A stretch of DNA of 64,000 nt from Malacoraja senta (taxonomy: Eukaryota), in the NCBI GenBank assembly GCA_038087875.1, contig CM075993.1, positions 5,272,001 to 5,336,000 on the forward strand, in the 5' to 3' direction. Position 1 is the stretch's first letter; each line of letters begins with the position of its first letter. The notes under the pieces were generated by a model. It made no database searches. It was not told the origin of the DNA and saw only the letters and a program-made list of their open reading frames with translations. Both the position numbers and the translations under genes were made by a program. Of this stretch, positions 21,615-63,715 are shown in pieces.

Positions 21615-22030
21615 AAACATAGAAACATAGAAACATAGAAAATAGGTGCAGGAGTAGGCCATTCGGCCCTTCGAGCCTGCACTGCCATTCAATATGATCA
21701 TGGCTGATCATCCAACTCAGTATCCCGTACCTGCCTTCTCTCCATACCCCCTGATCCCTTTAGCCATAAGGGCCACATCTAACTCCCTCTTAAATATAGC
21801 CAATGAACTGGCCTCAACTACCTTCTGTGGCAGAGAATTCCAGAGATTCACCACTCTCTGTGTAAAAAATGTTTTTCTCATCTTAGTCCTAAAAGATTTC
21901 CCCTTTATCCTTAAACTGTGACCCCTTGTTCTGGACTTCCCCAACATCGGGAACAATCTTCCTGCATCTAGCCTGTCCAACCCCTGAAGAATTTTGTACG
22001 TTTCTATAAGATCCCCCCTCAATCTTCTAA
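21615..22030 (-). mobile_element. CR1 LINE 3' end
   Basis: ORF 21717-22067 resembles the CR1 C-terminus; CR1 tail. Confidence 0.95.
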
Positions 22031-22074
22031 AACAAAGCTTTGCACTGAACCTCAGTGCATGTGACAAATTTTTT

Positions 22075-27650: not shown

Positions 27651-27903
27651 GTAGACAAAAATGCTGGAGAAACTCAGCGGGTGAGGCAGCATCTATGGAG
27701 CGAAGGAATAGGTGACGTTTCGGGTCGAGACCTTTCTTCAGTCTGAAGGAGGGTCTCGACCCGAAACGTGAGTCTGAAGAAGGGTCTGGACCCGAAACGT
27801 CACCTATTCCTTCGCTCCATAGATGCTGCCTCACCCGCTGAGTTTCTCCAGCATTTTTGTCTACCTTTGATTTTTCCAGCATCTGCAGTTCTTTCTTAAA
27901 CTC
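27651..27903. mobile_element. PLE-derived foldback with tandem hammerhead cores
   Basis: Inverted arms; two CTGAAG..GAAACGT units at 27741-27803; TTTATAG flanks. Confidence 0.8.
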
Positions 27904-29253: not shown

Positions 29254-29791
29254 AAGGAACTGCAGATGCTGGAAAATCGAAGGTAGACAGAAATGCTGGA
29301 GAAACTCAGCGGGTGCAGCAGCATCTATGGAGCGAAGGAAATAGGCAACGTATCGGGCCGAAACCCTTCTTCAGACTGATGGAAGGTGGGGGAGGGGGGG
29401 CGGGGAGAAGAAAGGAAAAAGGAAGAGGAGGAGCCCGAGGGCTGAAGGAGAGCTGAGAGGGGGAGGAGACTGCAAGGGCTACCGGAAATTGGAGAATTCA
29501 ATGTGCTAGGGTGCAGACTGCCCAAGCGGAATATGAGGTGCTGCTCCTCCAATTTCCGGTGGTGCTCACTCTGGCCATGGAGGAGACCCAGGACAGAGAG
29601 GTCGGATTCGGAATGGGAGGGGGAGTTGAAGTGCTGAGCCACCGGGAGGTCAGGTTGGTTAATGCGGACCGAGCGGAGGTGTTCGGCGAAATGATCGCCA
29701 AGCCTACGCTTGGTCTCACCGATGTAGATCAGCTGACATCTAGAGCAGCGGATGCAATAGATGAGGTTGGAGGAGGTGCAGGTGAACCTCT
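29254..29791 (-). mobile_element. Penelope-like element 3' part: GIY-YIG endonuclease plus terminal repeat
   Basis: QRFTCTSSNLIYCIRCSRCQLIYIGETKRRLGDHFAEHLRSVR...RKLEEQHLIFRLGSLHP, then pyrimidine-rich UTR and hammerhead-bearing repeat. Confidence 0.9.
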
Positions 29792-29796
29792 GGTAG

Positions 29797-30392
29797 TGTG
29801 TAGGAAAGAACTGCAAATGCTGGTTTACACTGAAGATAGACACAAAATGCCGGTATAACTCAGCGGGACAGGCAGCATCTCTGGAATGCGTGACGTTTCG
29901 GGTCGAGACCCTTCTTCAGATTGAGAGTCAGGGGAGGAGGGAGATACAGAGATAAGGAAGGGTAGGGTGTGAAAAGGAGACATCAAAGGGGATGTAGGTC
30001 AAGGAAAATGTAGAATAGATCACTGTTAGCGAGGGGAAGGTGACAACGAAGCATACAGAGATAACATTTAATCAGGTGGACAGTCAGACGGGATGGAGAA
30101 CTAGGAAGGGGAGGGATGGAGAGGGTGGGTAAACAAGGATTATTTGAAGTTAGAGAAGTCAATGTTCACACGGCTGGGGTGTAAGCTGCCCAAGCGAAAT
30201 ATGAGGTGCTGTTCCTCCAATTTGCGCTGGGCCTCACTCTGACAGTGGAGGAGGCCCAGAACAGAAAGGTCAGTGTGGGAATGGGAGGGGGAGTTGAAGT
30301 GTTAAGTCAATGTTCATACCGCTGGGGTGTTAAGCTATCCAAGAGAAATAAGTGGTGCTGTTCCCCCAATTTGCGCCGGGCCTCACTCTGAC
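29797..30392 (-). mobile_element. Second PLE subfamily 3' fragment (GIY-YIG C-terminus, UTR, terminal repeat)
   Basis: Reverse strand RKLEEQHLIFRLG motif at ~30190-30230; type-B repeat. Confidence 0.8.
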
Positions 30393-34825: not shown

Positions 34826-35025
34826 NNNNNNNNNNNNNNNNNNNNNNNNNNNNNNNNNNNNNNNNNNNNNNNNNNNNNNNNNNNNNNNNNNNNNNNNNNN
34901 NNNNNNNNNNNNNNNNNNNNNNNNNNNNNNNNNNNNNNNNNNNNNNNNNNNNNNNNNNNNNNNNNNNNNNNNNNNNNNNNNNNNNNNNNNNNNNNNNNNN
35001 NNNNNNNNNNNNNNNNNNNNNNNNN
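34826..35025. other. Assembly gap (200 N)
   Basis: Run of N. Confidence 1.
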
Positions 35026-35769
35026 GAATTATGAGAGGCATAAATAGGGTAGACAGTCAGAGCCTTTTCCCCCCAGGGTGGGAAATGCCCAAACTAGAGG
35101 GCGTAGCATTAAGACCAGAAGGGGGAGGTTTAAAGGAGATGTGTGGGGCAGGTATGTTATAATACAGTGGTGGGTGCCTGGAACTCGCTGCCAGGGTGGT
35201 GGTGGAGGCAGGATAATGGTGTGTAAGAAGAGGCTTTTAGATGGGTTGAGGATAATATGTATGTGGGAATTTGGGATATGGATGGGGTGGCAGGCAGTGG
35301 AGGTTGGTTTAAACAGGCACCTTGTTCAGCACGGACATAGTGGGCCGAAGGGCCAGTTCCTGTGTTGTGCTATTCCACGTCCTCCGTTCAAGAACGGGTA
35401 AAGTGCTGGCTGTGTCCCCCACCCCCCCCTCTCCCCCCTAGAAGAAAGCACAAGTGGTTCAAAGGGTAACCAGCGGACAATGCCAGTGGGTCCAGAGCCA
35501 GCCGCCGGCTCTGGCAGTGAAGAGCGAGGAGGGGGGGATGGGGCAGAAGGCGGAAGTACGGGCAATCTCAGGGAAGTGGGTGCACGTCCCCCCCCCCTTC
35601 CCCCCCCCCCCAACTTGAAGCCCCCAGTCGGTGCAGAGATAAAGATGCTAATTCCATCAGACAGACCAGCCGCGCGCTCCCTTCCCCAGTCACGTGGATG
35701 CTATTCCTGGCAGCTCCTCGAGAAAGATTCTTCAGCAGCACCTTGCTAAATATAGCTTGCTGCAATTTA

Positions 35770-36930
<1,161 letters not shown>

Positions 36931-37209
36931 AGTGCCCGGTCTGGAGTATGGAGCCTCTACCCTGCAATGGCTGCTCTCTCTCCTTCTCTGGGCAGGGTAT
37001 CACCCCTACATCTACACGGACTGGTTCGACCTGTGCCCATCTATGCGAAGGAATAGGTGACGGTTCGGGTGGAGACCCTTCCTCAGTTTCTCCAGCAATT
37101 TAGTCTACATAAGATCGTAAGCGATGGGAGTAAAAGTAGGCCATTCGGCCCATCGAGGACTACTCCGCCATTCAATCGGGGCTGATCCATCTCTTCGGCC
37201 CACCGATTT

Positions 37210-37585: not shown

Positions 37586-38025
37586 CAAGGGCCGGCAACC
37601 TACGGCCCCCGGGCCGAATGCGGCCCGTAACCTGAAATCATCCGGCCCGCGGGCGGATTTTGTTTCCTGTATTCATCTGTCCCCGCCGAGCGCCGAGCTC
37701 CAGCCGTAACGCATCCTGCGCAAAGCCGCCGGCACGGCCCCGCACCTTCTGCGAACACGTTTAAGAAAGAGCTGCAGATGCTGGAAAAAACGTAGGCAGA
37801 CAAAAAATGCTGGAGAAACTCAGCGGGTGAGACATGCAAGGATTGCACGAGGCTGCCTCACCCGCTGGGTTTCTCCAGCATTTATTGTCTAACCTTCCGT
37901 GAACGCGTGGTTTGATGCCTGCCATCCGGGGCGCGATCCGTGTGTACACGGGGTAGATGTGGCCCGCCATCCACTCACAGACGTGCGTCCCGGCCCCTAG
38001 GCAGAACAAGGTTGCCCACCCCCTG
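37586..38025. mobile_element. hAT (Charlie-like) MITE with nested PLE foldback
   Basis: CAAGGGCCGGCAACC / GGTTGCCCACCCCCTG TIRs; perfect 8-bp TSD GTCTAAGC (37578-37585, 38026-38033). Confidence 0.9.
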
Positions 38026-39524
38026 GTCTAAGCTAAACTAATCACCTGACATGGAGGGGTAAATTAATCTGGTTTAATACTAATAACGCCTACTCGACCA
38101 GACGTACGCATGCCTTGTTTGATCAGCAATTCTCACCGGTGGTCAGATACTACTCCAACTCTTTAGTTAAAAACCTAGAAAGCAGAACTTTTAATACTTT
38201 GCTTTAAAAAAAGATATATTTTCTTTAGATCAGAACTGCTGGAAATGCAAAGGAAATTGTGGGAATTTTATTTCATCCTTAGACGCCTCTGGGACAACTC
38301 AATGAGTCTAGTTTTGGCACAGGTCGGTCTCAGAACATGTGGCAGGTGCTACAATCTGCCGCGGGTGTGTGTGGCTCCCAGGTCATCCATTCATGGATGG
38401 ATATTCGCTGCCACAGAGGGCAGTGGAGGGATTTAAGAGAGAGTTAGATAGAGCTCTAGGGGCTAGTGGAGTCAAGGGATATGGGGAGAAGGCAGGCACG
38501 GGTTACTGATTGGGGACGATCAGCCATGATCACAATGAATGGCTCGAAGGGCCGAATGGTCTCCTCCTGCACCTATTTTCTATGTTTCTATGATATGGAC
38601 CAAGCGCAGGCAGGTGGGACTAGTGTAGCTGGGGCAGGTTGGCCGGTTTGGGCAAGTTGGGCCGAAGGGCCTGTTTCCCCGCTGTACCATTCTACGACCT
38701 CTGACCCACCCAGCATGCCTTGGACTGTTCCGTCACAACTCTGCTCGTCCCACAAGATTTAGTTTGAACCCGAACAAGAGACAGCATCAGTCTAGTTTAG
38801 AGATACGTCCCACCGAATCCCACGCCGACCAGCGATCCCCGCACACTGTGGACATTTTACAATCTTTACCGGGCCAATCGATCGACAAACCTGCGCGTCT
38901 TCCGAGTGTGGGCGGAAACTGGAGCACCCGGAGAAAACCCACGAGGTCACGGGGAGGAACGTACAAACTCCGTGGTCGGAATTGAACCCGGGTCTCTGGC
39001 GCTGTGAGGCAGGTTTGTATTGATTGTAAAGACAGGAAGATTTTTGTAACAGTGCAACAGGGATGACTTCAGCTGCAGAGTCTGAGGGAAAACTGTGATG
39101 AGGCTCGTGGTATGGAAGCACAACACTGCGGTTATGTCCCTGGATGACGATTCCAGATCCCTGCCCTAATGAGCCATGGGCGCGAGCTCAAAACTAACCA
39201 CAGCAACTTGGGAATTCCAACTGTCAACAAAATTAATCTGTATTTTTAAAAAGAATATCAGTTGTGAAGATCGCATAATGGTCGACTTGGAATTAACACG
39301 CGCTAGACTCTGGAAATCCTTACTTACCGAGTCTGCCCTCCATGTAATTCCTGACCCATAGCCCTCCGTGTGGTATCCTGGGAGAGCCTTGCAGCTGGGC
39401 CGCGCGAGGTGGAGAGGTACCCTGAACCCACGTCTTCAAGGCCGGTTCTCTGGATACTTTCATGAGAGAGCTAGATAGGGCTCTTAAAGAGAGCGGAGTC
39501 AGGGGATATGGGGAGAAGGCAGGA

Positions 39525-39795
39525 AACATAGAAACATAGAAAATAGGTGCAGGAGGAGGCCATTCGGCCCTTCGAGCCTGCACCGCCATTCAATATGATC
39601 ATGGCTGATCATCCAACTCAGTATCCCGTACCTGCCTTCTCTCCATAACCCCCTGATCCCTTTAGCCACAAGGGCCACATCTAACTCCCTCTTAAATATA
39701 GCCAATGAACTGGCCTCAACTACCTTCTGTGGCAGAGAGTTCCAGAGATTCACCACTCTCTGTGTGAAAAATGTTTTTCTCATCTCCGTCCTAAA
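39525..39795 (-). mobile_element. CR1 3' end between + strand CR1 tail pieces
   Basis: RKTFFTQRVVNLWNSLPQKVVEA. Confidence 0.9.
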
Positions 39796-40941
39796 ACGGG
39801 ATGATCAGCCATGATCACATTGAATGGCGGTGCTGGCTCGAAGGGCCGAATGGCCTACTCCTGCACCTATTGTCTATTGTCTAAAGGGCCTGTTTCCGCG
39901 TTGTATCTCTGAAGTTCGGCAACTTGGTCAGCATGGATTAGTTGGGCCGAAGGGCCTGTTTCTATGCTGTGGCTTTAAATCCAAAGTTGGTTGTTGGCTT
40001 GAAACTAAAGTTTGAGATGTTCATATTTCAAAGCCCTTTGACTAAAATGAACAGCAGCTCTCCAGAAGTAAATGGTTCGAGCGCATTGGATCTGCACACA
40101 CTGTTCCAATGACTTAGATGAGATACAGTAGCTTTCACGTTTAACAAGCTATTCGGAAAAAAAATCATCGAGCGTCTTAAACATGTCTCGGCGACCATCA
40201 AAACGTACCACAGAAAAGCTAAATCACATCTCAAGCTGGAGACTGGAGACGAATTCCTAATGAACTGAATCAAAGCATCCGCAAGTTTAAGCAATGGAAG
40301 ATGTGCGTTTGAAGAAGGGTCTCGACCCAAAACGTCAGCCATTCATTCCTTCTCTATCGGGATGGGAAAGGGGGGGGCTGTCCAGCGTTTGGGTCTATCT
40401 TCAATGCAAACCAGCATCTGCAGTAGCTTTCTTTGAGCGATGGAAGATGTGTATGGGTGAGGTACAGAACATACTCTGGGTTAACGGAGCCCTCTGATGT
40501 AGGCTCAGGGCTTCATTCCAACGCACCAGCCCGTAGTCTAAACACTCGAGTGCAGTATCGAACATGCCGTCCGTTGGATCAGGCAGTGGAGCCAGGCGGG
40601 CGGTGTCTGCTGCTCGGTGACTCAGGTGGAGGCCTGGATGTCTGAGAAGCGGAGGAAGTTGGCACCGTGTCCTTTGGCCAGGCCCACTGCCCTCGCCCGA
40701 GAACAGCGCAAACCAACACAGACCACGCGGCCATGTATATCACTGCCGACTGCTCAGCGCAATCATCTCCACGCCCCCCCCCCCCCCCCCCAGCGGGTAG
40801 AGACGCTGCCTCACAGCGCTGGAGACCCGGCTTCAAATCCCACCTCAGGCACTGTCTGTGTGGAGTTTGCATGTTGTGCATGGGTTTCCTCCCACATCCC
40901 AGGTGACTGTGAAGAAGGGGAGACTCAAAATGCTGGAGTCA

Positions 40942-42000: not shown

Positions 42001-42750
42001 GAACACTATCCTACACACCCTTGGGACAATTTATAATTTTAACAAAAGCCAAATAACCTACAAACCTGAAGGTCTTTGGAGTGTGGAAGGAAACCGGAGC
42101 ACCAGGAGAAAACCCACACCATCACGAAAGGAACGTACAGACTCTGTGCAGACAGCAGCCACAGTCAGGATCAAACCCGGGTCTCTGGCGCCGTGAGACA
42201 GCAACTCTACCGCTGCGCCTCCGTGCTGCCCAAAATTGTGGGATCTTGCTGTGTACAGAGTGGGAGCAGCGTCTCCTGTGTCACCCTCTGACCTTATGAC
42301 CGTGTGGGTTCCTCCGGGTGCTCCGGCTTCCTCCCAGAAAGTGGGATAGCGTGGAACTAGTGCGAATGAGTGATCGGTGGTCGGTGTGGAGTCAGTGGGC
42401 CGAAGGGCCTGTTCCACGCTGTATGTCTAGACTAAAGGGCTGTGTTTGTAGACGAGGGTCTCCGGCGCACAGCTGACCAGCGCCACACTCAGCCTCGGTG
42501 TTCGGACCAGGGGGCAAGTGGACGCCAATGAACAAAATGCTGGAGTGACTCAGCGGGACAGGCAGCATCTCTGGAGAGAAGGAATGGGTGACGTTTCGGG
42601 TCGAGACCGTTCAGTCTGAAGATGGGGCTCGACCAATAGGGTCACGACCTATTCCTTCCCTCCGGGGATGCTGCCTGACCCGCTGAGTTACTCCAGCATT
42701 TTGTGTCTATCTTCGGTGGTGACCAGCATCTGCCGATCCTTCCCACACAA

Positions 42751-43872: not shown

Positions 43873-44385
43873 CTTGCCATAGAGGGAGTACAGAGAAGGT
43901 TCACCAGACTGATTCCTGGGATGGCAGGACTTTCATATGAAGAAAGACTGGATAGACTCGGCTTGTACTCGCTGGAATTTAGAAGATTGAGAGGGGATCT
44001 TATAGAAACGTACAAAATTCTTAAGGGGTTGGACAGGCTGGATGCAGGAAGATTGTTCCCGATGTTGGGGAAGTCCAGAACAAGGGGTCACAGTTTGAGA
44101 ATAAGGGGGAAATCTTTCAGGACCAAGATGAGATTTTTTTTTTTCACGCAGAGAGTGGTGAATCTGTGGAACTCTCTGCCACAGAAGGTAGTTGAGGCCA
44201 GTTCATTGGCTATATTTAAGAGGGAGTTAGATGTGGCCCTTGTGGCTAAAGGGATCAGGGGGTATGGAGAGAAGGCAGGTACGGGATACTGAGTTGGATG
44301 ATCAGCCATGATCATATTGAATGGCGGTGCAGGCTCGAAGGGCCGAATGGCCTACTCCTGCACCTATTTTCTATGTTTCTATGTC
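43873..44385 (+). mobile_element. CR1 LINE 3' end
   Basis: ORF 43921-44292 resembles the CR1 C-terminus; CR1 tail. Confidence 0.95.
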
Positions 44386-44816
44386 TTGGTGGCACTTCTC
44401 GGCTCTACCCCCCCTCCCCCCACCTCCACTTCTCCCTTCCCCTCCCCTCCCGCCCGCTCAATCCTCCCCGCGGGCAGGGAAAAGGCCGTGTCTGCTTGTG
44501 GACGTTACCTGGTCAGGAGGCCCTGTTGCTGGCCAACAGACTGTGGGGGTCTCGCGTCCTCAGGATGTCCCGAAACACCTTTACAACCGTCGGGGGTACT
44601 TTCTCAATATGTCGCTAATGGCGTGACGCAGGGCGGCAGCATCTGAGGCGCTCCCTTGGGATCCTGGATGACTCCGGGCCTACGTCACCTGAGGAGGCTG
44701 AGCAGGCCGGTGCAGTAACTGTAGGCTCTTCCACACGTGGTGGTGGGGTGCCCCTCGTGTGCCTTCAAGCTTCTCAAAAGAGTAACCCCAGATTAACTCA
44801 GCAGGTCAGACGCAAG

Positions 44817-45617
44817 CACCTTCTTCCCGATGGCAGGGGTGAGATGAGTGTGTGGCCAGGATGGTGTGGGTCTCTGATGATGCCGGCTGCCTGTTTGAGG
44901 CAGCGACTGTGATAGATCCCTTCGATGGTGGGGAGGTCAGAGCCGGTGATGGACTGGGCAGTGGTCACAACTTTCTGCATTATTTTCCACTCCCGGACGT
45001 TCAAGTTGCCGAACCAAGCCACGAAGCAACCGGTCAGCATGCTCTCTACTGTGCACCTGTACAAGTTCGACAGAGTCCTCCTTGACAAACCGACTCTCCA
45101 TAATCTTCTCAGGAAGTAGAGGCACTGATGTGCTTTCTTTATGATTGCATCAGTGTTCTGGGACCAGGAAAGATCGTCGGAAATATGCACGCCCAGGAAT
45201 TTGAAGTTCTTGACCCTTTCCACCATCGACCCGTTGATATAAACGGGACTGTGGGTCCCCATCCTACTCCTTCCGAAGTCCACAATCAGTTCCTTGGTTT
45301 TGCTGGTGTTGAGAGCCAGGTTATTGTGCTGGCACCATTTGGTCAGTCGGTCAATCTCACTTCTATACTCTGACTCGTCCCCATCAGTGATACGTCCCAC
45401 AACAGTGGTGTCGTCGGCGAACTTGATGATGGAGTTCGCACTATGTCCGGCTACGCAGTCATGAGTATAGAGTGAGTACAGCAGGGGGCTGAGCACGCAG
45501 CCTTGAGGTGCTCCCGTGCTGATTGTCATCGAGGATGACACATTTCCACCAATACGGACAGACTGTGGTCTGTGAATGAGGAAGTCGAGGATCCAATTGC
45601 AGAGGGATGCGCAGAGA
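44817..45617 (-). mobile_element. Rex1/Babar-clade LINE reverse transcriptase fragment (open frame)
   Basis: [68 protein letters not shown]. Confidence 0.9.
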
Positions 45618-45699
45618 TATCGCAGGATAACGTGCAACTCCCGCCATCGCCCGCAACACTCTGCAGCCCCTTCCACGGTGGGATGAAGGGCCTGATCAT

Positions 45700-46037
45700 G
45701 TCCCCTACAACTCTCACCAACTTCTACAGATGCGCTGCGGAAAGCATTTAATCGGGATGCGTCAATGCACGGTTTGGGAACGACTCCATCCAAGGCCGGA
45801 AACAAACCGCAGCGAATTGTGGACGCAGCCCAGACCGTCACACACAAACCATCCTCCCTTCTATATGGCTCCACTTATACCTCACGCTGCCCCGGCAAGG
45901 CCAGCAGCAGAATCAAGGACCAGTCGCGCCCTGGCCACTCCCTCTCCTCCCCTCTACGATCGTGCTAACGGTACAGAAGTTTGAAAACGCACGCCTCCAG
46001 ATTCAGGGACAGTTTATTCCCAGCTGTTATCAGGCAA
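45700..46037 (+). mobile_element. Rex1/Babar C-terminal fragment, decayed
   Basis: [12 protein letters not shown].., SRCPGKASSRIKDQSRPGHSL, RFRDS motifs across frameshifts. Confidence 0.7.
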
Positions 46038-46880: not shown

Positions 46881-47327
46881 TTTCTACGACCCCGAAACGT
46901 CACCCATTCCTTCTCTCCGGAGATGCTGAGTTACTCCAGCATTTTGTGTCCGCCCTCCCCTCATTACCATCTGTGGGAGGGTGTTGTGTGTGTGTGTGTG
47001 GGAAGGCCGTCTACCCACTGGCTGCTCAAAGACACAACACCGCGTCTGATTTCAGGGGAAGTCATAAAGATAAAATATATTTACTCCTCCGTGTTGCCGA
47101 CGTCCGACGCAGCGAGCACTGACCTCCGGGTGAAGAGTCACAAGAGAAAATGCCAGCACAGAAAAAATGGCCGACCATTCGGCCACAGAGCACGCCTCCT
47201 GGACTCTTCCATTCAAAGGAGAAGGACGTGGTCTCCCCTGGTCGTGCCCAGTGTTACACTTACACTTGTTTAACTTACACTTAAGCAGGTATCATGGGCT
47301 ATGGGGACAAGGCAGGGGAAAGGGGTT

Positions 47328-47995
47328 ACATAGATACATAGAAAATAGGTGCAGGAGTAGGCCATTCGGCCCTTCGAGCCTGCACCGCCATTCAATATGA
47401 CCATGGCTGATCATCCATCTCAGTATCCCATCCCTGCCTTCTCTCCATACCCCCTGATCCCTTTAGCCACACGGGCCACATCTAACTCCCTCTTAAATAT
47501 AGCCAATGAACTGCCCTCAACTACCCTCTGTGGCAGAGAATTCCAGAGATTCACCACTCTCTGTGTGAAAACGTTTTTCCTCATCTCGGTCTTAAAGGAT
47601 TTCCCCCTTACCCTTAAGCTGTGACCCCTTGTCCTGGACTTCCCCAACATCGGGAACAATCTTCCTGCATCTAGCCTGTCCAACCCCATAAGAATTTTGT
47701 ACGTTTCTATAAGATCCCCTCTCAATCTCCTAAATTCTAGCGAGTATAAGCCAAGTCTATCCAGTCTTTCTCCATATGAAAGTCCTGACATCCCAGGAAT
47801 CAGTCTGGTGAACCTTCTCTGCACTCCCTCTATGGCTATAATGTCCTTCCTCAGATTTGGAGACCAAAACTGTACGCAATACTCCAGGTGTGGTCTCACC
47901 AAGACCCTGTACAACTGCAGTAGAACCTCCCTGCTCCTATACTCAAATCCTTTTGCTATGAAAGCTAACATACCATTCGCTTTCTTCACTGCCTG
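47328..47995 (-). mobile_element. CR1 LINE 3' end
   Basis: KKANGMLAFIAKGFEYRSREVLLQLYRVLVRPHLEYCVQFWSP... (189 aa). Confidence 0.95.
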
Positions 47996-48360: not shown

Positions 48361-49706
48361 CTAAAAGCCCATTCCTAGGGGGGGCTGGGGGAGGGGGGAG
48401 GGGGGTGGATGCCCATTCTCAGGCAAGACTTCCAGAAATCCCAAACCATGTTGTTCAGTGGCATCAGAAATAGTCCACATCTCCTCACAACAATCCACGC
48501 ACACCTCAACTACACAAACTCCTGGCTTGGTGCGGTATCTTCAACGTGGTGCTTTGGGTGGACTTCAAACTACTGCATGGTTACATGCGGCTGGCTCCAC
48601 GACACAGCTTCAGGAGGACCAGCATGCAGACGTTTACAGCTCTCAAGGTGCGGCCGGCCACAGCTTGATAAGGTGGACAAGACAGCCTTTGGCTTTCATC
48701 GTTTCTTCTGAAGACAGGTCCTGCACATTTCCCCCTTCACATTTTCCCCTCAGACTCCACCCTCACCTCCACTGCCCCCCGACGTCCCCCTGCATCCTGG
48801 CCCTTCAGCTTGCATCAACAGCAGCATCAGCGGGCGTTTCCTGTTGTGAAAACGTTGCCTCGCTGATCGCTCTCCAAGCCAAAGGCCCATGTGTTGCCAT
48901 TGACGTCTCTCCAATCTTGATGTAGATAAACACGTTAAGCCCTCACTTTGTAGTTTTTGTCTTCTATGGAGCCCTTTGTGTTGTGGCCAGCGCAGGGGTT
49001 CGGAACTGAATTGAAAATCCAGGGCTGTAAATGTTTACACCGACGCTTAGATTATTACCAGCGCCAGTTTATTGGCTAACTTGGGTTTTAATGGATAGCT
49101 GCCCTAACTATTTTTAACTATTTCGCTCCTCAAATATGGCTCACCTGAAACAATGGTCTGAGAAGAAAGATTGGGATGAAAGGACGTCCATTTGCAATGC
49201 AGACACAAAATGCTGGAGTAACTCAGCGGGTCAGGCAGCATCTCTGGAGGAAAGGAATAGGTGACGTATTGGGTCGACCCGAAATGTTGCCTTCTTACTC
49301 CAGAGATTCGCCTGACCTGCTGAGTTACTCCAGCATTTTGTGTCTATCTTCGTTCCCTCACCCCCTCCCCAGTCTTCTCCCACCCCCCCCTGGTCTCCCA
49401 CTGAAAAAAGACAAAAGATCAGACCCAAACTATGCTCACTGAATCCACAGCGATTCGTTCGATTTTTATTTCGACCTTTGATTCCTTGCGTTTTACGGAA
49501 TACCGAACTCGCTTATTCTCTGGATACTTTCAAGAGAGAGTTAGATAGAACTCTTAAAGATAGCGGAGTCAGGGGATCTGGGGAGAAGGCAGGAACGGGG
49601 TACTGATTGGGGATGATCAGCCATGATCACATTGAATGGCGGTGCTGGCTAGAAGGGCCGAATGGCCTACTCCTGCACTTATTGTCTATTGTCTATTGTA
49701 CACTTA

Positions 49707-53600: not shown

Positions 53601-54299
53601 ACTGAAGGAGATGGGGGAGACATCAAACTGGTCAACCATCAGTCTGCCAGTGAGCAACCCTGCCCCAATTGATCCGGACTCCCTGGGCTCCCCTCTCCAT
53701 CCCGGTGCGGCCTCCTGCTCTTCCCACCCTCCCTGGGCCTGGCTGGAGCTGGAGCTGGAGCCTGGCCTTGGCGAAGACGTGACCTTGAATCACCTCCCCC
53801 GGTTCGCATTGAGCGCTAGGCCGCAGCCTAACTGTGACCCTGGTGGCGAGACTCCAGCCACATTCCCCCACTGCACCGCAGCTCATTAATACAAAGCTTT
53901 TAAAAATCAAAATGAAATTTAAAAAATCGCCTTGTTTTCTTTGGAGATTCTATCTGTATAATTAACATTCTTGAGTGGAGAGAGCAGAAGGCCTTGGCTG
54001 CTGAGTTGAAGGTGTGTGCGCTCTCTGGTCGAAGGTAGACGCAAAATGCTGGAGTAACTCAGCGGGACCCGCTGAGTTACTCCAGCATTTTGTGTCTACC
54101 TTCGATTTTAAACCAGCGCCTGCAGTTCTTTCCGACGCATTTTGCGCACTTCTGGTTGGCAGGAAACTCGTGCCCCTTCACCCCACCCTGTCACCACGCC
54201 AGTGGTTTAGACAAGGTCGTAGCCCAGTCGTCGTTTCAACCATCCACAGGCACGGTCTCTTACAATGCCATGTACGACAGCGATCGCAACTTCCCACTG

Positions 54300-55035
54300 C
54301 CTTTCCAGGTGCGGCAGTGGTTCACCTGCACCTCCTCCTAACCTCATCTATTGCATCCATCCGCTGCTCCAGGTGTCAGCTGCTCTAGCTCGGCGAGACC
54401 GAGCGCAGGCTCGGCGATCGCTTCGCCCAACACCTCCGCTCGGTTCGCAATCACCAACCTGATCTCCCGGTGGGCCCAGCACTTCAACTTCCCCCCTCCC
54501 CATTCCGAATCCGGCCTTTCTGTCCTGGGGCCTCCTCCGTGGCCAGAGTGAGTCCCAACGCAAATTGGAGGAGCAGCACCTCATATTTCGCTTGGGTAGT
54601 TTACACCCCAGCGGTATGAACATTGACTTCTCCAATTTCAGGTAGTCCCTGCTTTCTCCCTCCTTCCCCTCCCCTTCCCAGCTCTCCCACAAGCCCACCG
54701 TCTCCGCCTCTACCTCTCTTCTTCCCCCCCCCCCCCACATCAGTCTGAAGAAGGGTCTCGGCCTGATACGTCACCTATTCCTTCGCTCCATAGATGCTGC
54801 CTCACCCGCTGGGTTTCTCCAGCATCCATGGAGCGAAGGAATAGGTAACGTTTCGGGTCGAGACCCTTCCGGGTCTCGACCCGAAACGTCACCTATTCCT
54901 TCATCAGTCAGAAGAAGGGTCTCGACCTGAAACGTCACCTATTCCTTCGCTCCACAGATGCTGCCTCACCCGCTGAGTTTCTCCAGCATTTTTGTCCACC
55001 TTCGATTTTTCCAGCATCTGCAGTTCCTTCTTAAA
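54300..55035 (+). mobile_element. Penelope-like element GIY-YIG remnant plus rearranged terminal repeats
   Basis: FQVRQWFTCTSS / NLIYCI / RCSRCQLL / QHFN / RKLEEQHLIFRLGSLHP across frameshifts; several hammerhead units at 54742-54945. Confidence 0.85.
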
Positions 55036-56669
55036 CGCTACTTCTACTGAAGGTGTTTACAGAGTACTATGTTTACATGTTGGTTGTGCTGCTGCAGGTA
55101 AGAATTTCACGGTTCCATTCCATTTTGGGGCAAGTGACAATAAAACACACTTGAAATCCTCTCGGGGGGGGGGCGCAGGGAGGCTTTGATCTAACGTCGC
55201 ACCTTAAAAAAGACTGCACGCCCTCTGACGCTGCAGCACTCCCTCTCTTCCGCCCGGATTTCTGAGCGCCCAGAGCGGGTCTCGAACGTCTCGAGAACAC
55301 CAACAACCCGGCCCATCGCAGCGAGCGGGGCCTCCTGGAGAGCAACGGAGAGTCGACCCCGACCCTAACTCTGAGGCACTGACAGGGTAATCCCTTCTTC
55401 TCCCCCCCGCCTTCCCGAGGCGGCTGTTTTTCCCGAGCGCAGCCACATTTTTCCGAAAGATTCTATTTCTGCAGAATATTGGGTTACAGTAAAGAGGAAA
55501 CAGTTACCCCTCTCCTGCTGCAGCTCTCCTCTACTTATTATACCGGGTCTAGTCTTACGAGAACACTGTGGTTTGGCAACAACAAGCCAGACAGTCATCA
55601 TTTTTTTTCTGGCAATCAGAGATAATATTAAAAGGGGCCATTGTCACCATTTACGAGCGAGAGGAAGCCGGTGAATAAATGATTATGTTAACTGTTTACT
55701 GATGTGCATTGTATACAGCTACCAATTGGAACATCACCATCCATCATTGTATCACGCTTAGAGCGATCCATTGTGATACTCCCAATAACTTGTTTTCTTC
55801 ACGGGATGGTTCGTTACGGAAGTTCAAAGCGACACGGAGTTGTTGGACATGCTGGTGTCAAAACTTGCCTCAACACCAGCCTTAAGAGTCGGACAGCACG
55901 GAATTAGGCCCATGGGTCCAATTGCCCATGTCAACCATGGTGTCCCAACTACACTAGTCCCACCTGCCTGCGTTTGCCCCATGGCCCTCTAAACTTCGGC
56001 AGCATGAGGTTTGAACTCGGGGCAATGTTAAATCAGGTACGGGGTTAACTCAGCAACTCAGGTGGGGGGGGAAGTGTTCCCACCTGACCACGTGATCGAT
56101 TGGCCCGGATCACGGTCCGGCCCACGCAAGAGTTCGAGCCCGACCGACGACAGCTCGGTACCAAAATGGCTCCGACCCCCACACTCTCTCCTTTCACCTT
56201 AAAGCCCGCGCCCTCTAGTTTTAGAATCGTCCATCCAGTGAGCGCTCGCTGTATCCATACTCCTCATGGACCTTGCACACCCCAATAAAGTTCACTCCTC
56301 GGCCTCCTACGCCCCAAGGAAAGACGTCCCGGCCTATCAAACTTCAGTCCACTTTATCCAAGCCTCTCATTTGATATTTTTCTTTCCGACTGGATTATTC
56401 TATCCCTTATTCTGCGGGTGAGGCAGCATCTATGGAGCGAAGGAAATAGGCAACGTTTCGGCCCGAAACCCTTCTGGAAATAGGCAACGTTTCGGCCCGA
56501 AACCCCTCTGGAAATAGGCAAACGTTTCGGGCCGAAACCCGCAAGGGTTTCGTCCCGAAACGTTGCCTATTTCCTTCGCTCCATAGATGCTGCTGCACCC
56601 GCTGAGCTTCTCCAGCACTTCGGATTTTCCAGCATCTGCAGTTCCTTCCTGCTTCTGGTACATTTGACA

Positions 56670-56985
56670 TTTTTAGTTTAGTTTGGAGATACAGCGCGGA
56701 AACACGCCCTTCGGCCCACCGGGCCCAGCGATCCCCGCACATTAACACCGTCCCTACACACACCAGGGACAACTTTTTACATTTACACCAAGCCAATTAA
56801 CCTACAAACCTGCACGTCTTTGTGGAGCGCGGGAGGACACCCGAAGATCTCGGAGAAAAACCCGCCGCGGGTCACGGGGAGGACGTGCAAACTCCGCACA
56901 GACAGCGCCCGTAGTCGGGATCAAACCCGGGTCTCCGGCGCTGCATTCGCTGTAAGGCAGCAACTCTACCGCTGCGCCAACGCGA
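56670..56985 (-). mobile_element. Full-length V-SINE
   Basis: Head with GAATGCAGC insert, V-domain, tail. Confidence 0.85.
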
Positions 56986-57512: not shown

Positions 57513-58160
57513 TAGATACATAGATACATAGAAAATAGGTGCAGGAGTAGGCCATTCGGCCCTTTGAGCCTGCACCGCCATTCAATATGATCATGGCTGA
57601 TCATCCAACTCAGTATCCCGTACCTGCCTTCTCTCCATACCCCCTGATCCCTTTAGCCACAAGGGCCACATCTAACTCCCTCTTAAATATAGCCAATGAA
57701 CTGGCCTCAACTACCCTCTGTGGCAGAGAGTTCCAGAGATTCACCACTCTCTGTGTGAAAAAGTTTTTCCTCATCTCGGTTTTAAAGGATTTCCCCCTTA
57801 TCCTTAAACTGTGACCCCTTGTCCTGGACTTCCCCAACATCGGGAACAATCTTCCTGCATCTAGCCTGTCCAACCCCATAAGAATTTTGTACGTTTCTAT
57901 AAGATCCCCTCTTAATCTCCTAAATTCTGGCGAGTACAAGCCGAGTCTATCCAGTCTTTCTTCATATGAAAGTCCTGACATCCCAGGAATCAGTCTGGTG
58001 AACCTTCTCTGCATTCCCTCTATGGCTATAATGTCCTTCCTCAGATTTGGAGACCAAAACTGTACGCAATACTCCAGGTGTGGTCTCACCAAGACCCTGT
58101 ACAACTGCAGTAGAACCTCCCTGCTCCTATACTCAAATCCTCTTGCTATGAAGGCCAACA
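57513..58160 (-). mobile_element. CR1 LINE 3' end
   Basis: ORF 57610-58188 resembles the CR1 C-terminus. Confidence 0.95.
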
Positions 58161-58690
58161 TTTGGTCTCCAAATTTGAGGAAGGACATTCTTGCTATTGA
58201 GGGACCCCAGCCGTAGGTTTACAAGGTTATTTCCCGGGATGGCAGGACAGTCGTATGGTGAGAGAATGGAGCGACTGAACTTGTACACTCTGGAGTTTAG
58301 AAGGATGAGGGGGAATCTTATTGAAACATATAAGATTATTAAGGGTTTGGGACACTCTAGAGGCAGGAAACATGTTCCCGATGTTGGGGGAGTCCAGAAC
58401 CAGGGGCCACACAGTTTAAGAATAAGGGGTTGGCTATTTAGAAGGGGGACGAGGAAAAACGTTTTCACCCAGAGAGTGGTGAATCTGTGGAATTCTCTGC
58501 CTCAGAGGGCAGTGGAGGCCAATTCTCTGGATGCTTTCAAGAGAGTTAGATGGAGCTCTTAAAGATAGCGGAGTCAGGGGAGATATGGGGAAAAGGCAGG
58601 AACGGGGTACTGATTGTGGATGATCAGCCATGATCACAGTGAATGGCGGTGCTGGCTCGAAGTGCCGAATGGCCTCTACTCCTGCACCTA
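58161..58690 (+). mobile_element. CR1 LINE 3' end (second subfamily), head-to-head with the previous one
   Basis: RRFTRLFPGMAGQSYGERMERLNLYTLEFRRMRG. Confidence 0.9.
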
Positions 58691-59406
58691 TTGCGTAAAC
58701 CAGCATCTGCGGTTCCTTCCTACGCATCCTATTGTATTGTATATATGTTGGGCTCGGTGACTGCAGTGGCAGTGAAGCAAGACTTGCTCGGGCCGAAGGG
58801 CCAGATACCGTGTGGTCGGACTGCAACAGGCTGGATTGATAACTGGATTGATCCCCTCCAGTTAGTTTCTCCCCGTGCCACTTCAGTAGCAAGACAGTAG
58901 CAGCGCGCAAAGTTATACAATTCTTCATTAGCATTTCACAAAGTGGCCGTTTTACTGACAAATACAAACGAGGCCTGCAGAACCACCAGCGTAGCCATGG
59001 CAACCAACCACAAGCCATTCGCCGTGGCTCCACCACTTCTATCTCCTTGATGAATAATAGTGATGTTTTTAACACAAATAAAAAAAACTCAAGTTAAATG
59101 GAAGAATGGAAAAACACTTTGTACAATCCAAGGCCAAGAACATCCAAAAAGTCTGGATTCTGGCTGCAAATGCAATACTACACAAAACCCTTGCCAGCAA
59201 CACGCATGCAAAAGACCGTCTCGTCAACTTCAAGCAGCTACCTTGCACAACGACTCCCACTGAGGTGTTTGGTTCACATTTCAAAAGCTCAAAGGAAAAG
59301 GAAAGCCCACTCACTTTTCAGGCAAATGAGCAGAACAACATATTGTTGGTGGGTTCCCTGTTCAAGGCTGAGCCAAGGCCTGTGTCAAACAGGCCTCAGT
59401 GTTACA

Positions 59407-60038
59407 CAGAGAGAGAGGGGCAGAGAGAGAGAGAGAGAGGGGGAGAGAGAGAGAGAGAGACAGAGAGAGGTACACAGAGAGAGAGAGAGGGAGACAGAGA
59501 GAGAGAGAGACAGAGAGAGGGGCAGAGAGAGAGAGAGAGACAGAGAGAGGTACACAGAGAGAGAGAGAGGGAGACAGAGAGAGAGAGAGACAGAGAGAGA
59601 GAGAGACAGAGAGAGAGAGAGGGGGACAGAGAGAGACAGAGAGAGAGGGAGACACAGAGAGGAGGGGGACGGAGAGAGAAGGGGAGAGAGAGAGAATGAG
59701 GGAGAGAGAGTCGGAGAGAGACAGTGAGAGAATGAGGGAGAGAGAGTCGGAGAGAGAGGGAGGGAGAGAGAGAGAGAGGGGATGAGGGACAGAGAGAGAC
59801 AGAGAGAGACAGAGACAGAATGAGGGAGAGAGAGTCGGAGAGAGAGGGAGAGGGAGAGAGAGAGAGAGAGAGAGACAGAGAGAGAGGGAGACAGAGAGAG
59901 AATGAGGGAGAGAGAGTCGGAGAAAGAGGGAGGGAGAGAGAGAGAGAGAGACAGAGAGAGAGAGACAGAGGGAGGAGGGGGACGGAGAGAGAGAGAGAGA
60001 CGAGAGAGGGGGACAGAGAGAGAGGGAGAGAGAGAGAA

Positions 60039-60084
<46 letters not shown>

Positions 60085-60258
60085 GGAGAGAGAGGGGGAT
60101 AGAGAGAGAATGAGGGAGAGAGAGAGAGAGAGATGGAGAGAGAGGGGGACGGAGGGAGAGGGGGATGGAGAGGGAGACAGAGAGAGAATGAGGGAGAGAG
60201 TTGGAGAGAGAGGGACGGAGAGAGAGGGGGACAGAGAGAGTGGGAGACAGAGAGAGAA

Positions 60259-60295
<37 letters not shown>

Positions 60296-60430
60296 AAAAG
60301 GGAGGAGACATAAAGAGCCAAGAGGGGAGACAGAATAAAAATAGGGAGACACAGGGGCAAAAAGGGAGAGAGAGAGAAAAAAACGGGGAGGGAGACAGGG
60401 GTTGAGGGAGAGAGAAATGGGAGACAGAGA
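59407..60430 (+). repeat. (GA)-rich polypurine tract with higher-order AATGAGGGAGAGAG units
   Basis: Directly visible. Confidence 0.95.
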
Positions 60431-60715: not shown

Positions 60716-61000
60716 ATGCAGCGCCGGAGACCCGGGTTCGATCCCCGACTACGGGTGCTGTCTGTACGGAGTTTGCACGTTCTCCCCGTGACCTGCGTGG
60801 GTTTTGTCCGTTTCCCTCCCGCACTCCAAAGACGTACAGGTTTGTAGGTTAATTGGCCTTGGTACCAATGTTAAAAAAAACCCTCTAGTGGGCGTAGGAT
60901 AGTGTTAATGTTCGGGGGATCGCTGGTCGGCACGCGGACCCGGTGGGCTGAAGGGCCTGTTTCCGCGCTGTATCTCCGAACTAAACTGAACTAAACTAAA
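60716..61000 (+). mobile_element. V-SINE, 5'-clipped
   Basis: B box, V-domain, tail. Confidence 0.85.
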
Positions 61001-61309
61001 AAATGTCAAATGTACCAGAAGCAGCAAGTATTTTCAAGAAGGAACTGCAGATGCTGGAAAATCGAAGTGCTGGAGGAACTCAGCGGGTGAGGCAGCATCT
61101 ATGGAGCGAAGGAAATAGGCGACGTTTCGGGACGAAACCCTTCCGGGTTTCGGCCCGAAACGTTGCCTATTTCCAGAAGGGTTTCGGGAAAGGGTTTGGT
61201 GAAGATGGATTCAAGCTGAATGATACAGCTATACCTTCCAGCTTTTTGTCTTAGTTGTCTAACCGAGGTCTTCGGTTTCCTCCCACACTCCAAAGACGTG
61301 CAGGTTTGT

Positions 61310-61642
61310 GTGGAGTGTGAAAGGTATACATCTTCTAGATGCGCTGGGACGCATCCTCACTGATGTGATCTGGGGTCAGCGGGTGTTTCGGGTCTCGCAA
61401 CATCAGACACCCTCGCCCAGGCGACTCCAGCCGGGGTTGATCAGGCCCCGACTCGCGTCCCAGCAGCAACCGCCCACGGAGCAGCCATCTTAATCCAAAG
61501 CCACCTGGTGGCTTTCTCTGCGGCTTCGCTTGCGGATTGAACGGCCCCCTTCTTTGCCAGCCCCGTAATCCCCAACTGGTTGAGGACTCTGCAGAGTGAG
61601 CGTCCTGCAAAGCATCTACAGCCCGCCTCATAGTATGTGTTC
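61310..61642 (-). mobile_element. HERO-like (R2/NeSL group, restriction-like endonuclease) non-LTR 3' end inserted in a V-SINE
   Basis: Minus frame EAGCRCFAGRSLCRVLNQLGITGLAKKGAVQSASEAAEKATRWLWIK; TTTGT duplicated on both sides. Confidence 0.75.
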
Positions 61643-61771
61643 TTTGTAGGTTAATTGGCTTGGTAAATGTTTTTTTTTTTTAATTGTCCCTAGTGGGTGT
61701 AAGATAGTGTGTGCGGGGTTTGTAGGCAAAATGGTAAATTGACCCTAGTGTGTGTGTAGGATAGTGTTAGA

Positions 61772-62150
61772 ATAGACACTAGACAATAGGTGCAGGAGTA
61801 GGCCATTTGGCCCTTCGAGCCAGCACCGCCATTCAATGTGATCATGGCTGATCATCCCCAATCAGTACCCGTTCCTGCCTTCTCCCCATATCCCCTGGAC
61901 TCCGCTATCTTTAAGAGCCCTATCTAGCTCTCTCTTGAAAGCATCCAGAGAATTGGCCTCCACCGCCTTCTGAGGCAGAGAATCCCACAGACTCACAACT
62001 CTCTGGGTGAAAACGTTTTCCCTCACCTCCGTTGTAAATGGCCCACCCCTTATTCTTGAACTGTGGCCCCTGGTTCTGGACTCCCCCAACATCGGGAACA
62101 TGTTTCCTGCCTCTAGCATGTCCAAACCCTTAATAATCTTATATGTTTCA
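61772..62150 (-). mobile_element. CR1 3' end
   Basis: FETYKIIKGLDMLEAGNMFPMLGESRTRG. Confidence 0.9.
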
Positions 62151-62704
62151 AACACTAATACCACCACAGACTCACAACTCTCTGGGTGAAAAAATGTTTC
62201 CTCGTCTCTGTTCAAAAGGGCCCACCCCCTATTCTTGTCCAGGGACAAGAACCAGGGACAATGTCCAGGGACCGCTGGTTGGCACGGACCCGGTGGGCCG
62301 AAGGGCCTGTTTCCGCGCTGTATCTCTAAACTAAAACTCAAGCGCCTTATCTACAGGCTGATGGGGAACTGACCATGGTGAAGGGAGTGGCCATTTTCTG
62401 GGGTAAAAGTGTTTGCTTGGCAGGTTACCGTGTATGTACTCCACTGCCCTTTACAACGTCTGGCATGGTTCCACCCATGTAGAAACAAAGAACTGCAGAT
62501 GCTGGATTATGCCAAAGATAGGCACAAAGTGCTGGAGTAAGCCAGTGGGTGAGGCAGCATCTCTGGAGGAAAAGGAGGGGGAGGGGGGGAAGCATCTCTA
62601 GAAATGCGGCCTTTGTGTCTATCACGGTTCCACCAACACGGCTTCTATCGTCGTGTCGCCACCATATTGTCCAGGGTGGCCAGTGGAGGTGGCGAGATGC
62701 CACA

Positions 62705-63715
62705 CAAAGTCAAAGTCAAGTCAAGTTTATTCGTCACCTACACATACGTGATGTGCAATGAAATGAAAAGTGGCAAATGCTCGCGGAATGTGCAAAAAAA
62801 CCACAAACAGAATGGAACAGAATCACATATTCATATATTTGTGGGAGGAGAAAAAGAGAAAAAACCCAGCAATTTTAAAAAGATACAACAGTAGATTGGT
62901 TCAGTAAAGTTAGTCCCTGGTGGGGTAGGAGTTTACAGTCCGAATGGCCTCTGGGAAGAAACTCCTTCTCATCCTCTCTGTTCTCACAGCATGGCGACGG
63001 AGGCGTTTGCCCGACCGTAGCAGCTGGAACAGTCCGTTGTTGGGGTGGAAGGGGTCCCCCATGATCTGAAGAAGGGTTTCGGCCCCGGATTACGGGGCTG
63101 GCAAAGAAGCCGCAATCCGCAAGCGAAGCCGCAGAGAAAGCCACCAGGTGGCTTTGGATTAAGATGGCTGATCCGTGGGCGGTTGCTGCTGGGACGCGAG
63201 TCGGGGCCTGATCAACCCCGGCTGGAGTCGCCTGGGCGAGGGTGTCTGATGTTGCGAGACCCGAAACACCCGATGACCCCAGATCACATCAGTGAGGATG
63301 CGTTCCAGCGCATCTAGAAGATGTATAACTTTCACACTCCACACAAACCTGCACGTCTTTGGAGTGTGGGAGGAAACCGAAGACCTCGGTTAGACAACTA
63401 AGACAAAAAGCTCGAAGGTATAGCTGTATCATTCAGCTTGAATCCATCTTCACCAAACCCTTTCCCGAATCCCTTCTGGAAATAGGCAACGTTTCCTTCG
63501 CTCCATAGATGCTGCTGCGCCCGCTGAGTTTCTCCAGCATTTTTGTGTATCTCCCATGATCTTGTTGGCTCTGGATCGGCACCTCCTGGTGTATAGTTCC
63601 TGCAGGGGGGGCGAGTGTAGTTCCCACTCTCTGCAGAGCCTTCCTGTCCCGGGCAGAGCAGTTCCCAAACCAGATCGTGATGTTTCCGGACAAGATGCTT
63701 TCCACTGCTCCACAA
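62705..63715 (-). mobile_element. Rex1/Babar 3' end interrupted by a 485-bp composite insertion (63068-63552)
   Basis: FCGAVESILSGNITIWFGNC..RANKIMGD | PFHPNNGLFQLLRSGKRLR..RSFFP; AATAAAC(TTGAC)n tail. Confidence 0.85.

What the first reader, a model, noticed from the sequence alone, without database searches (positions are those of the whole stretch)
63058..63562. TSD-flanked PLE-type insertion carrying an inverted copy of DNA from ~2 kb away
Seen: a Rex1 reading frame is interrupted between two CCCATGATCT repeats (63058-63067, 63553-63562). The insert consists of a hammerhead 5' half, then 63087-63495, then a PLE repeat arm. Segment 63087-63495 is the reverse complement of 61157-61571, a locus-specific mosaic of PLE end, unique spacer, V-SINE piece and HERO fragment. 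The copied segment starts at the GAAACGTT hammerhead site of the source locus. The copies differ by several substitutions and a small indel. Inference: local transduction or templated capture during PLE-type insertion, a route to local inverted duplications.
Basis: partly seen in the sequence, partly recalled or inferred. Interest (0 to 1): 0.7.

Follow-up and report, generated by a model that had tools for sequence, protein, structure and literature searches.

The report
Retroelement scar holding copied neighbour DNA
A short Penelope-type retroelement insertion carries, in its middle, a reversed 409-base copy of DNA from 1.5 kb away; it is a real and well-preserved example of known copy-and-patch repair at a mobile element, not a new kind of element.

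Summary
The structure is present as described. A Rex1-like frame is split by a 485-nt insert flanked by a 10-nt (12 of 13 nt) duplication. 63087-63495 is a 97% reverse complement of 61157-61571, the best long self-match in the window. The two outer arms are the ends of an ordinary short Penelope-type insertion; the 17 nt that normally join them are replaced by the copy. The source is the older locus, since its nested repeats continue past the copy, and both copies carry their own mutations, which argues against an assembly error. Transduction is unlikely: the copy is antisense to the arms, the right arm lacks a deletion fixed at the source, and the left arm has no counterpart there. The junctions show 4-nt microhomology, a short slip-copy and a possible snap-back, as in microhomology-driven templated repair. 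Whether this happened during insertion (about 0.45) or in later break repair (about 0.33) is unresolved. No read spanning the junctions was seen and no genome was available. A second inverted sibling pair (56.5 kb / 61 kb) hints at recurrence. Precedents exist for Penelope, L1 and MMBIR: a new variant of a known kind.

The parts
62870..63057 (-). Rex1-like non-LTR retrotransposon fragment, 3' part (left flank); family name recalled
   Evidence: Frame continues across the site; aligns to residues 332-355 of the RT copy at 44801-45874, E 6e-5, which carries RVT_1 and ALKBH8_N
63058..63067 (+). Left copy of the target-site duplication (10 nt exact; 63055-63067 gives 12 of 13); its last 3 nt overlap the element start
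63065..63085 (+). Arm A: start of a short PLE pLTR fragment, with the hammerhead-type CTGAnGA box and stem II
   Evidence: 21 of 21 identical to the PLE copy at 29375-29355, which follows a GIY-YIG-like frame; alignment
63082..63098 (+). Left inner junction: one extra base at 63086; 6-bp stem with 5-nt loop across the junction (possible snap-back)
   Evidence: 29 of 440 alternative end points would also give such a stem, so suggestive only
63087..63495 (-). Inverted templated copy of 61157-61571 (17-nt part B, partial hammerhead unit, unique spacer, SINE piece, RT C-terminus and 3' UTR)
63106..63114 (+). Slip-copy: a 9-mer duplicated from 63125 replaces 6 nt more of source sequence, 20 nt from the end of the copied tract
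   Evidence: source is in register with homologous proteins; a single-copy-depth contig of run X2 has the longer form (table 4)
63492..63549 (+). Arm C of the short PLE insertion; first 4 nt (TTTC) are shared with the end of the copied tract
   Evidence: 1 difference in 58 nt from the TSD-flanked copy at 2554-2611; 6 mismatches plus 6 gap columns from the source arm
63553..63562 (+). Right copy of the target-site duplication
63563..63715 (-). Rex1-like fragment, 5' part (right flank), with an older frameshift
   Evidence: 43% identity over 37 aa to the RT copy at 44801-45874, E 2e-8; no Pfam hit on its own
61033..61174 (.). Source locus: head-to-head PLE end forming a 30-bp-arm hairpin at 61111-61174; arm C carries an 11-nt deletion
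   Evidence: I12; -36.7 kcal/mol, z -9.2
61157..61571 (+). Template of the copy
61190..61262 (.). Spacer found only here and in the insert
61263..61309 (+). SINE piece (V-SINE by recall), continuing at 61643 beyond the RT fragment
   Evidence: 61263-61309 matches 9303-9349 and 61643-61667 matches 9345-9369: contiguous with a 5-nt overlap
61310..61642 (-). C-terminus and 3' UTR of a non-LTR RT element (HERO by recall) that split the SINE; only part of it is copied
   Evidence: 32 homologues at 62-76% identity, several with PF00078
56496..56722 (-). Inverted sibling of 60939-61189 (SINE tail, unique linker, PLE hairpin, same deletion), 4.2 kb away, no TSD found by eye
   Evidence: 96.0% and 93.8% by segment; linker 17-mer present twice in the window

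Best explanation
A young, short Penelope-type pLTR fragment (arm A, 17-nt part B, arm C) inserted into a Rex1-like element with a roughly 13-nt target duplication, and its integration was completed by copying nearby genomic DNA. The strand growing from the arm C end, which is the first-strand cDNA side, stalled at the 4-nt inverted repeat that bounds part B. It moved to the related PLE end 1.9 kb away (4-nt microhomology, with 24 nt of identity 45 nt upstream and an identical part B), copied 409 nt of that locus in the opposite orientation, slipped once near the end, and joined arm A by microhomology-type end joining. Shown: the three-part anatomy, the direction source to insert, the independent origin of the arms, the junction features. 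Inferred: DNA rather than RNA template, direction of synthesis, timing at insertion, the enzymes.
For: Outer ends match ordinary short copies: 3 of 28 other PLE clusters tested have 12-13-nt flanking repeats, and arms A and C are joined by about 11-13 letters in 47, 43, 39 and 57 contigs of the four runs (tables 5, 5c). Arm C differs by 1 of 58 nt from a sister insertion, an age not distinguishable from the 6 of 409 in the copied tract. The source keeps the nested SINE and RT element whole while the insert stops inside them. The microhomology lies at the arm C junction and the slip-copy and possible snap-back at the arm A junction, which fits synthesis starting from arm C. Head-to-head PLE copies with strand switches in the A/B region are common in the window. 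L1 makes such products: three insertions with sequence templated from DNA near the site (PMC11702581, passages).
Against: Nothing dates the copy to the insertion itself; 75 nt of arm give little power. The snap-back stem has a chance level of 29 of 440. The 56.5-kb / 61-kb sibling pair has no evident TSD, so local copying here may not need an insertion. The path needs two or three template switches. No read spanning the junctions was shown.
Confidence: 0.45

Rival explanations
1. The short PLE copy inserted normally. Later a double-strand break inside part B was repaired by one-sided invasion of the nearest related repeat, copying 409 nt, and was closed by microhomology-mediated end joining (MMBIR or SD-MMEJ type). 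The PLE supplied only homology and perhaps the break.
For: Same anatomy and junctions as the best explanation. Inverted templated insertions flanked by 2-12-nt microhomology are the MMBIR signature (PMC8421209, passages); snap-back creation of microhomology is the SD-MMEJ model (PMC5728401, abstract). A PLE protein can nick its own pLTR (PMC11167929, parts 1-2 of 4). The 56.5-kb / 61-kb pair looks like repeat-primed local copying without a TSD.
Against: The MMBIR events in the passages read were sought within 100 bp of the insertion and are short; this one is 409 nt from 1.5 kb. Both arms survive with only the 17-nt part B affected, and arm C is nearly unmutated, so the host copy cannot be much older than the capture.
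Confidence: 0.33
2. RNA-level transduction or template jump: the reverse transcriptase left the PLE RNA, copied a minus-strand read-through transcript of the source locus, and returned.
For: PLEs may use antisense templates and template jumps, and capture host sequence between pLTRs with TSDs (PMC3846280, sections 9 and 11). The source's minus strand reads through the copied tract into a PLE end.
Against: A plain transduction would carry the source's own arm C, which it does not, and would not supply arm A. An RNA template gives no reason for the source to lie 1.5 kb away. The copy is antisense to the arms.
Confidence: 0.1
3. The mosaic is a dispersed composite family, and two members lie close by chance.
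For: Every part but the spacer is a high-copy repeat. No genome could be searched.
Against: The spacer and its junctions occur twice in 64 kb, 1.5 kb apart. The two copies have different outer arms. In run X2 the only contig laid over 63110-63112 has depth 3.59, like nearby single-copy contigs at 2-3.8 (tables 4, 8). Loose ends at the SINE piece continue as SINE, not as the mosaic (table 7).
Confidence: 0.07
4. Assembly artefact.
For: The region is almost wholly repeats, 2.6 kb from a 1-kb (GA)n tract, in a window with two 200-N gaps. No spanning read was seen.
Against: Both copies have derived changes: the source at 61481 (31 of 31 homologue rows shown have D or E where the insert has D and the source A), the insert at 63304, at 63470 and at the slip-copy. 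The insert sits exactly between a target duplication with intact PLE ends.
Confidence: 0.05

Closest known systems
Penelope pLTR-framed capture of host DNA in Adineta vaga (PMC3846280; passages and sections 9, 11 read)
   Same: Unrelated host sequence between PLE terminal sequences, flanked by an 8-10-bp TSD; non-coding cases are mentioned.
   Different: There the capture lies between whole pLTRs and is read as transposition in trans; no nearby source is given in the sections read. Here one pLTR fragment is split and the template lies 1.5 kb away, inverted.
L1 insertions with locally templated genomic sequence (PMC11702581; passages read, Fig. S10 not seen)
   Same: Retrotransposon insertion carrying extra sequence copied from DNA near the integration site, attributed to processing of break ends.
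   Different: Human L1, de novo in cells, attributed to the reciprocal DNA end. Here the copy is internal, between two arms of a PLE, in a germline-type assembly.
MMBIR templated insertions and SD-MMEJ (PMC8421209, passages; PMC5728401, abstract)
   Same: Inverted copy of a nearby template, short microhomology, several template switches, hairpin-made microhomology.
   Different: Those searched events are tens of bases from templates within 100 bp. This one is 409 nt from 1.5 kb and both ends lie in a mobile element.
Poseidon/Penelope-clade PLE with minimal hammerhead in the pLTR (PMC4209133, passages; PMC11167929, parts 1-2 of 4; PMC8557442, passages)
   Same: Hammerhead-type core in the terminal repeat, GIY-YIG-like frame upstream in longer copies, head-to-head copies, optional tail, variable internal start of reverse transcription.
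   Different: The insert holds no ORF and its hammerhead is broken; clade assignment was not tested.
L1 3' transduction and twin priming (recalled)
   Same: A retroelement insertion that carries flanking or inverted sequence.
   Different: No poly(A); the captured tract is antisense and internal, not downstream of the element and not next to the 5' TSD.

Membership tests
Penelope-like element (arms) | Terminal repeat follows a GIY-YIG endonuclease frame | tested here: inconclusive
   Copies at 29.3-29.9 kb and 54.3-54.8 kb have such a frame upstream; Pfam GIY-YIG E 0.0038, 17.9 bits, below the 22.6 cut-off
Penelope-like element (arms) | Minimal type I hammerhead core in the pLTR | tested here: inconclusive
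   Core boxes and stem II found by pattern in 8 copies, matching the description in PMC4209133; no Rfam hit at gathering score; folding did not single out the ribozyme fold; cleavage untested
Penelope-like element (arms) | Direct and head-to-head inverted arrangements, optional tail, short TSD | tested here: met
   47 clusters with such forms; arms end with or without a tail; 12-13-nt flanking repeats in 3 of 28 other clusters
Penelope-like element (arms) | Telomerase-related RT of the PLE clade | not tested
   No PLE RT frame was identified among the 30 longest open stretches of the window
Retrotransposon transduction | Captured tract is co-oriented with, and contiguous at the source with, the element that carried it | tested here: not met
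   Tract is antisense to the arms; arm C and arm A do not come from the source
Templated insertion (MMBIR / SD-MMEJ type) | Inverted copy of a nearby template | tested here: met
Templated insertion (MMBIR / SD-MMEJ type) | Microhomology or synthesis-made microhomology at both junctions | tested here: inconclusive
   4 nt at the arm C junction; at the arm A junction only through a possible snap-back, chance 29 of 440
Templated insertion (MMBIR / SD-MMEJ type) | Dependence on repair polymerases rather than RT | not testable with these tools
   Needs experiment
Rex1/Babar (target) | Non-LTR RT followed by the ALKBH8_N-like domain | tested here: inconclusive
   Indirect: flanks align to a window RT copy with RVT_1 and ALKBH8_N; no direct Pfam hit; the name and the hallmark are recalled
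HERO and V-SINE (parts of the mosaic) | Match to the family consensus | not testable with these tools
   No repeat library is held. The RT piece matches the C-termini of fish RT proteins; the SINE piece has about 20 relatives in the window; both names are recalled

The most novel reading that the evidence does not exclude
The hammerhead segment of this very abundant PLE repeat is a recurrent switch point at which new or broken copies jump to a related copy a few kb away and duplicate neighbouring DNA in inverted form. The 56.5-kb, 61-kb and 63-kb loci would be a chain of such events, and the process would be a genome-wide source of short local inverted duplications in these fishes.
Probability: 0.15. 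Interest if true: 0.6.

Novelty: new variant of a known kind. Interest (0 to 1): 0.3.

Why it matters
How Penelope-like elements finish integration is still open (PMC11167929, PMC8557442). A case with the template in view and readable junctions suggests a simple test: collect PLE insertions with foreign interiors and ask how far away, and in which orientation, their templates lie. If local capture is common, a repeat present about 47 times in this 64-kb window would be a steady source of short inverted duplications. As a single event among repeats, with no gene touched, it has little biological consequence.

Tried and rejected
Whole-genome search: no genome held, so copy number outside the window is untested. 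Sequencing runs: no listed run holds more than 0.35 of the words; no RNA holder listed. Laying four contig sets was swamped by repeats; 685,500 pieces and 2,769 joints were not shown, so neither the insert's junctions nor an empty site could be read. Run X1 shows no depth at 63110-63112 and all four show none at 62382-62462; these holes prove nothing. Rfam: 0 hits. RNA folds of three hammerhead-type stretches were not better than shuffles. Ribozyme cleavage as the cause of the copy's start: rejected as unnecessary, since the start is 8 nt from the expected cut. Clean hairpin bypass at the source: rejected, as the 45 nt skipped are not symmetric about the hairpin. Substitution spectrum (5 transversions of 6) as a sign of error-prone copying: not supported, since at least one, and by the per-run counts of A>C rows probably two, of the three A/C sites are derived in the source. 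SINE bodies at 56.7-56.9 kb and 60.7-60.9 kb as part of the sibling duplication: not supported, 79% by blastn against 80-85% for the best other copies. The inverted pair 15384-15528 / 16603-16750 (86%) looks like two dispersed element ends. Earlier scan notes: three look-ups returned nothing. Literature: nine searches gave no report of a PLE insertion with an identified nearby inverted template; the library lacks most subscription papers, and supplements were not read.

Full report
Observation. The coordinates hold. CCCATGATCT occurs only at 63058 and 63553, on either strand, and the match extends to 12 of 13 nt. Counting the repeat once, the minus-strand frame of the flanks runs through the site, and both flanks align to a second reverse-transcriptase copy in the window that has RVT_1 and ALKBH8_N domains (a 20-aa piece at the junction gave no alignment). 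The name Rex1 is recalled. 63087-63495 is the reverse complement of 61157-61571 at 97.1% over 415 columns, the highest identity among self-matches of 100 nt or more. The six substitutions are at 63171, 63273, 63304, 63328, 63413 and 63470. The spacer 61190-61262 and the RT fragment have one partner only in 64 kb.

The arms. The window holds 47 clusters of a repeat of about 95 nt. It reads as arm A (CTGAnGA box and stem II), a 17-nt part B that begins GAAA and ends TTTC, and arm C. Two longer copies are preceded by a GIY-YIG-like frame (Pfam E 0.0038, below cut-off), and eight copies show the full hammerhead-type core by pattern. This fits a Penelope pLTR with a minimal hammerhead (PMC4209133, passages), though Rfam finds nothing. 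Three of 28 other clusters tested have 12-13-nt flanking repeats; random window pairs reach 10 nt in 3.2% of trials. In four public runs from three organisms, 47, 43, 39 and 57 contigs join 63085 to 63492. The insert is therefore an ordinary short copy whose part B has been replaced by an inverted tract that itself ends in an inverted part B.

Direction of copying. At the source a SINE is split by an RT fragment: its two halves match 9303-9349 and 9345-9369 of another copy. The RT fragment matches 32 proteins at 62-76% identity and continues past 61571. The insert stops inside it, so 61 kb is the template. Both copies have since changed. At 63171 the insert codes D and the source A; 31 of the 32 homologues could be read at this place and show 26 D, 5 E and no A, so the source is derived. 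At 63304 nearly all laid depth has the source base, at 63470 the source agrees with its sibling, and the source stays in register with the homologues where the insert is 6 nt shorter, so the insert is derived there. Changes on both sides argue against an assembly artefact.

The arms are not from the source. Arm C differs from the source arm at 5 of 51 nt against 6 of 409 in the tract (Fisher p=0.004). It keeps 11 nt that are deleted in the source arm and in its older sibling at 56.6 kb, and it differs at 1 of 58 nt from a TSD-flanked copy at 2554-2611. Arm A has its only 21-nt match at 29.4 kb. The tract is antisense to the arms. Simple transduction is therefore unlikely.

Junctions. At arm C the tract and the arm share TTTC; the first 24 nt of arm C are also identical to the source arm, 45 nt upstream across a strong hairpin. 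Near the other end, the apparent 4+2-nt deletion creates a second copy of a 9-mer found 19 nt away, which one slip back and forward explains. At arm A there is one extra base, and a 6-bp stem spans the junction; 29 of 440 other end points would also allow such a stem, so this is only suggestive. Together these point to synthesis that began at arm C and ended with unstable, microhomology-seeking steps at arm A. That direction is inferred.

Mechanism. The most likely account (0.45) is capture while the insertion was being completed: arm C is the side where first-strand cDNA would start, and arm and tract are of similar age. Later repair of a break in part B (0.33) predicts the same anatomy, and PLE protein can nick its own pLTR (PMC11167929, parts 1-2 of 4). 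An RNA template (0.10), a dispersed family (0.07) and an artefact (0.05) remain.

Outside evidence. No genome is held. The best run holds 0.35 of the words. Organism A is close to the window at unique flanks: 0 differences in 124 nt, 1 plus a gap in about 195 nt, 3 plus a gap in 275 nt (table 8). In run X2 the only contig over 63110-63112 has the longer, source-like form at depth 3.59, the level of nearby single-copy contigs. This weakly supports a low copy number. It does not show whether the insert exists in that organism. No listed piece spans the insert's junctions, and most pieces were not shown.

A second case. 60939-61189 is an inverted sibling of 56496-56722, 4.2 kb away: 96.0% over the linker and PLE part, 93.8% over the SINE tail, with a linker found only at these two places and the same deletion in arm C. 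The SINE bodies upstream are no closer than other copies. I saw no TSD. It may be an older repeat-primed local copy, which would favour repair, or a small dispersed composite. Of seven two-copy-only matches in the window, two lie under 2 kb apart: this finding and an 86% pair that looks like dispersed element ends.

Comparison with what is known. Penelope elements frame captured host DNA with TSDs in a rotifer, including non-coding cases (PMC3846280, passages and sections 9, 11). L1 gave three insertions with sequence templated near the site (PMC11702581, passages; its Fig. S10 was not seen and may show closer parallels). Inverted templated insertions with microhomology define MMBIR (PMC8421209, passages), and hairpin-made microhomology defines SD-MMEJ (PMC5728401, abstract). 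PLE integration is described as not yet understood (PMC8557442, passages). Nine searches found no PLE case with an identified nearby inverted template, within an open-access library. The labels HERO, V-SINE, Rex1 and the guess of a cartilaginous fish are recalled, not tool results.

Verdict. The feature is real in the sequence and well preserved. It works like a templated insertion at a retroelement and is a new variant of a known kind. It is one event among repeats, with timing unresolved and no independent read support. Interest 0.3; 0.6 if a genome-wide count showed local capture at this hammerhead segment to be recurrent (probability about 0.15).

Noticed in passing
window 56496-56722 and 60939-61189: Inverted sibling pair 4.2 kb apart sharing a SINE tail, a unique linker, a PLE hairpin and a deletion; no TSD seen; each copy has its own small deletions.
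   Followed up: partly
window 56411-56620: PLE end with two to three head-to-tail units of 32-33 nt, each a hammerhead-type core, next to a head-to-head hairpin; its two arms belong to different sequence subtypes.
   Followed up: partly
window 2534-2613, 11862-11958, 22749-22841: Short PLE insertions of 80-97 nt with 12-13-nt flanking direct repeats, ending at nearly the same point of arm C.
   Followed up: yes
window 9460-9583, 13131-13279, 26606-26789, 27650-27865, 42534-42709, 49201-49346, 54034-54100: Head-to-head PLE palindromes with different strand-switch points, mostly in the A/B region.
   Followed up: no
window 29328-29915 (-) and 54320-54640 (+): GIY-YIG-like endonuclease remnants directly upstream of the PLE repeat; the first is a 196-codon open stretch.
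   Followed up: partly
window 37795-37895: Two opposed PLE arm pieces with about 15-19 nt of non-PLE sequence between them; origin not traced.
   Followed up: no
window 44801-45874 (-): 358-codon open stretch of a non-LTR RT with RVT_1 and ALKBH8_N domains.
   Followed up: partly
window 47327-47971 and 57517-58161; also 9676-10156, 21617-22031, 39523-39796, 43876-44386: Young LINE 3' fragments, 92-97% alike, in both orientations; a related subfamily lies at 58321-58693 and 61771-62151.
   Followed up: no
window 15384-15528 and 16603-16750: Inverted pair at 86%, 1.1 kb apart; looks like two dispersed element ends.
   Followed up: partly
window 9038-9237, 34826-35025, about 59300-60420, about 35700-37000: Two 200-N gaps and two GA-rich tracts of about 1 kb; the first gap cuts a PLE arm.
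   Followed up: no
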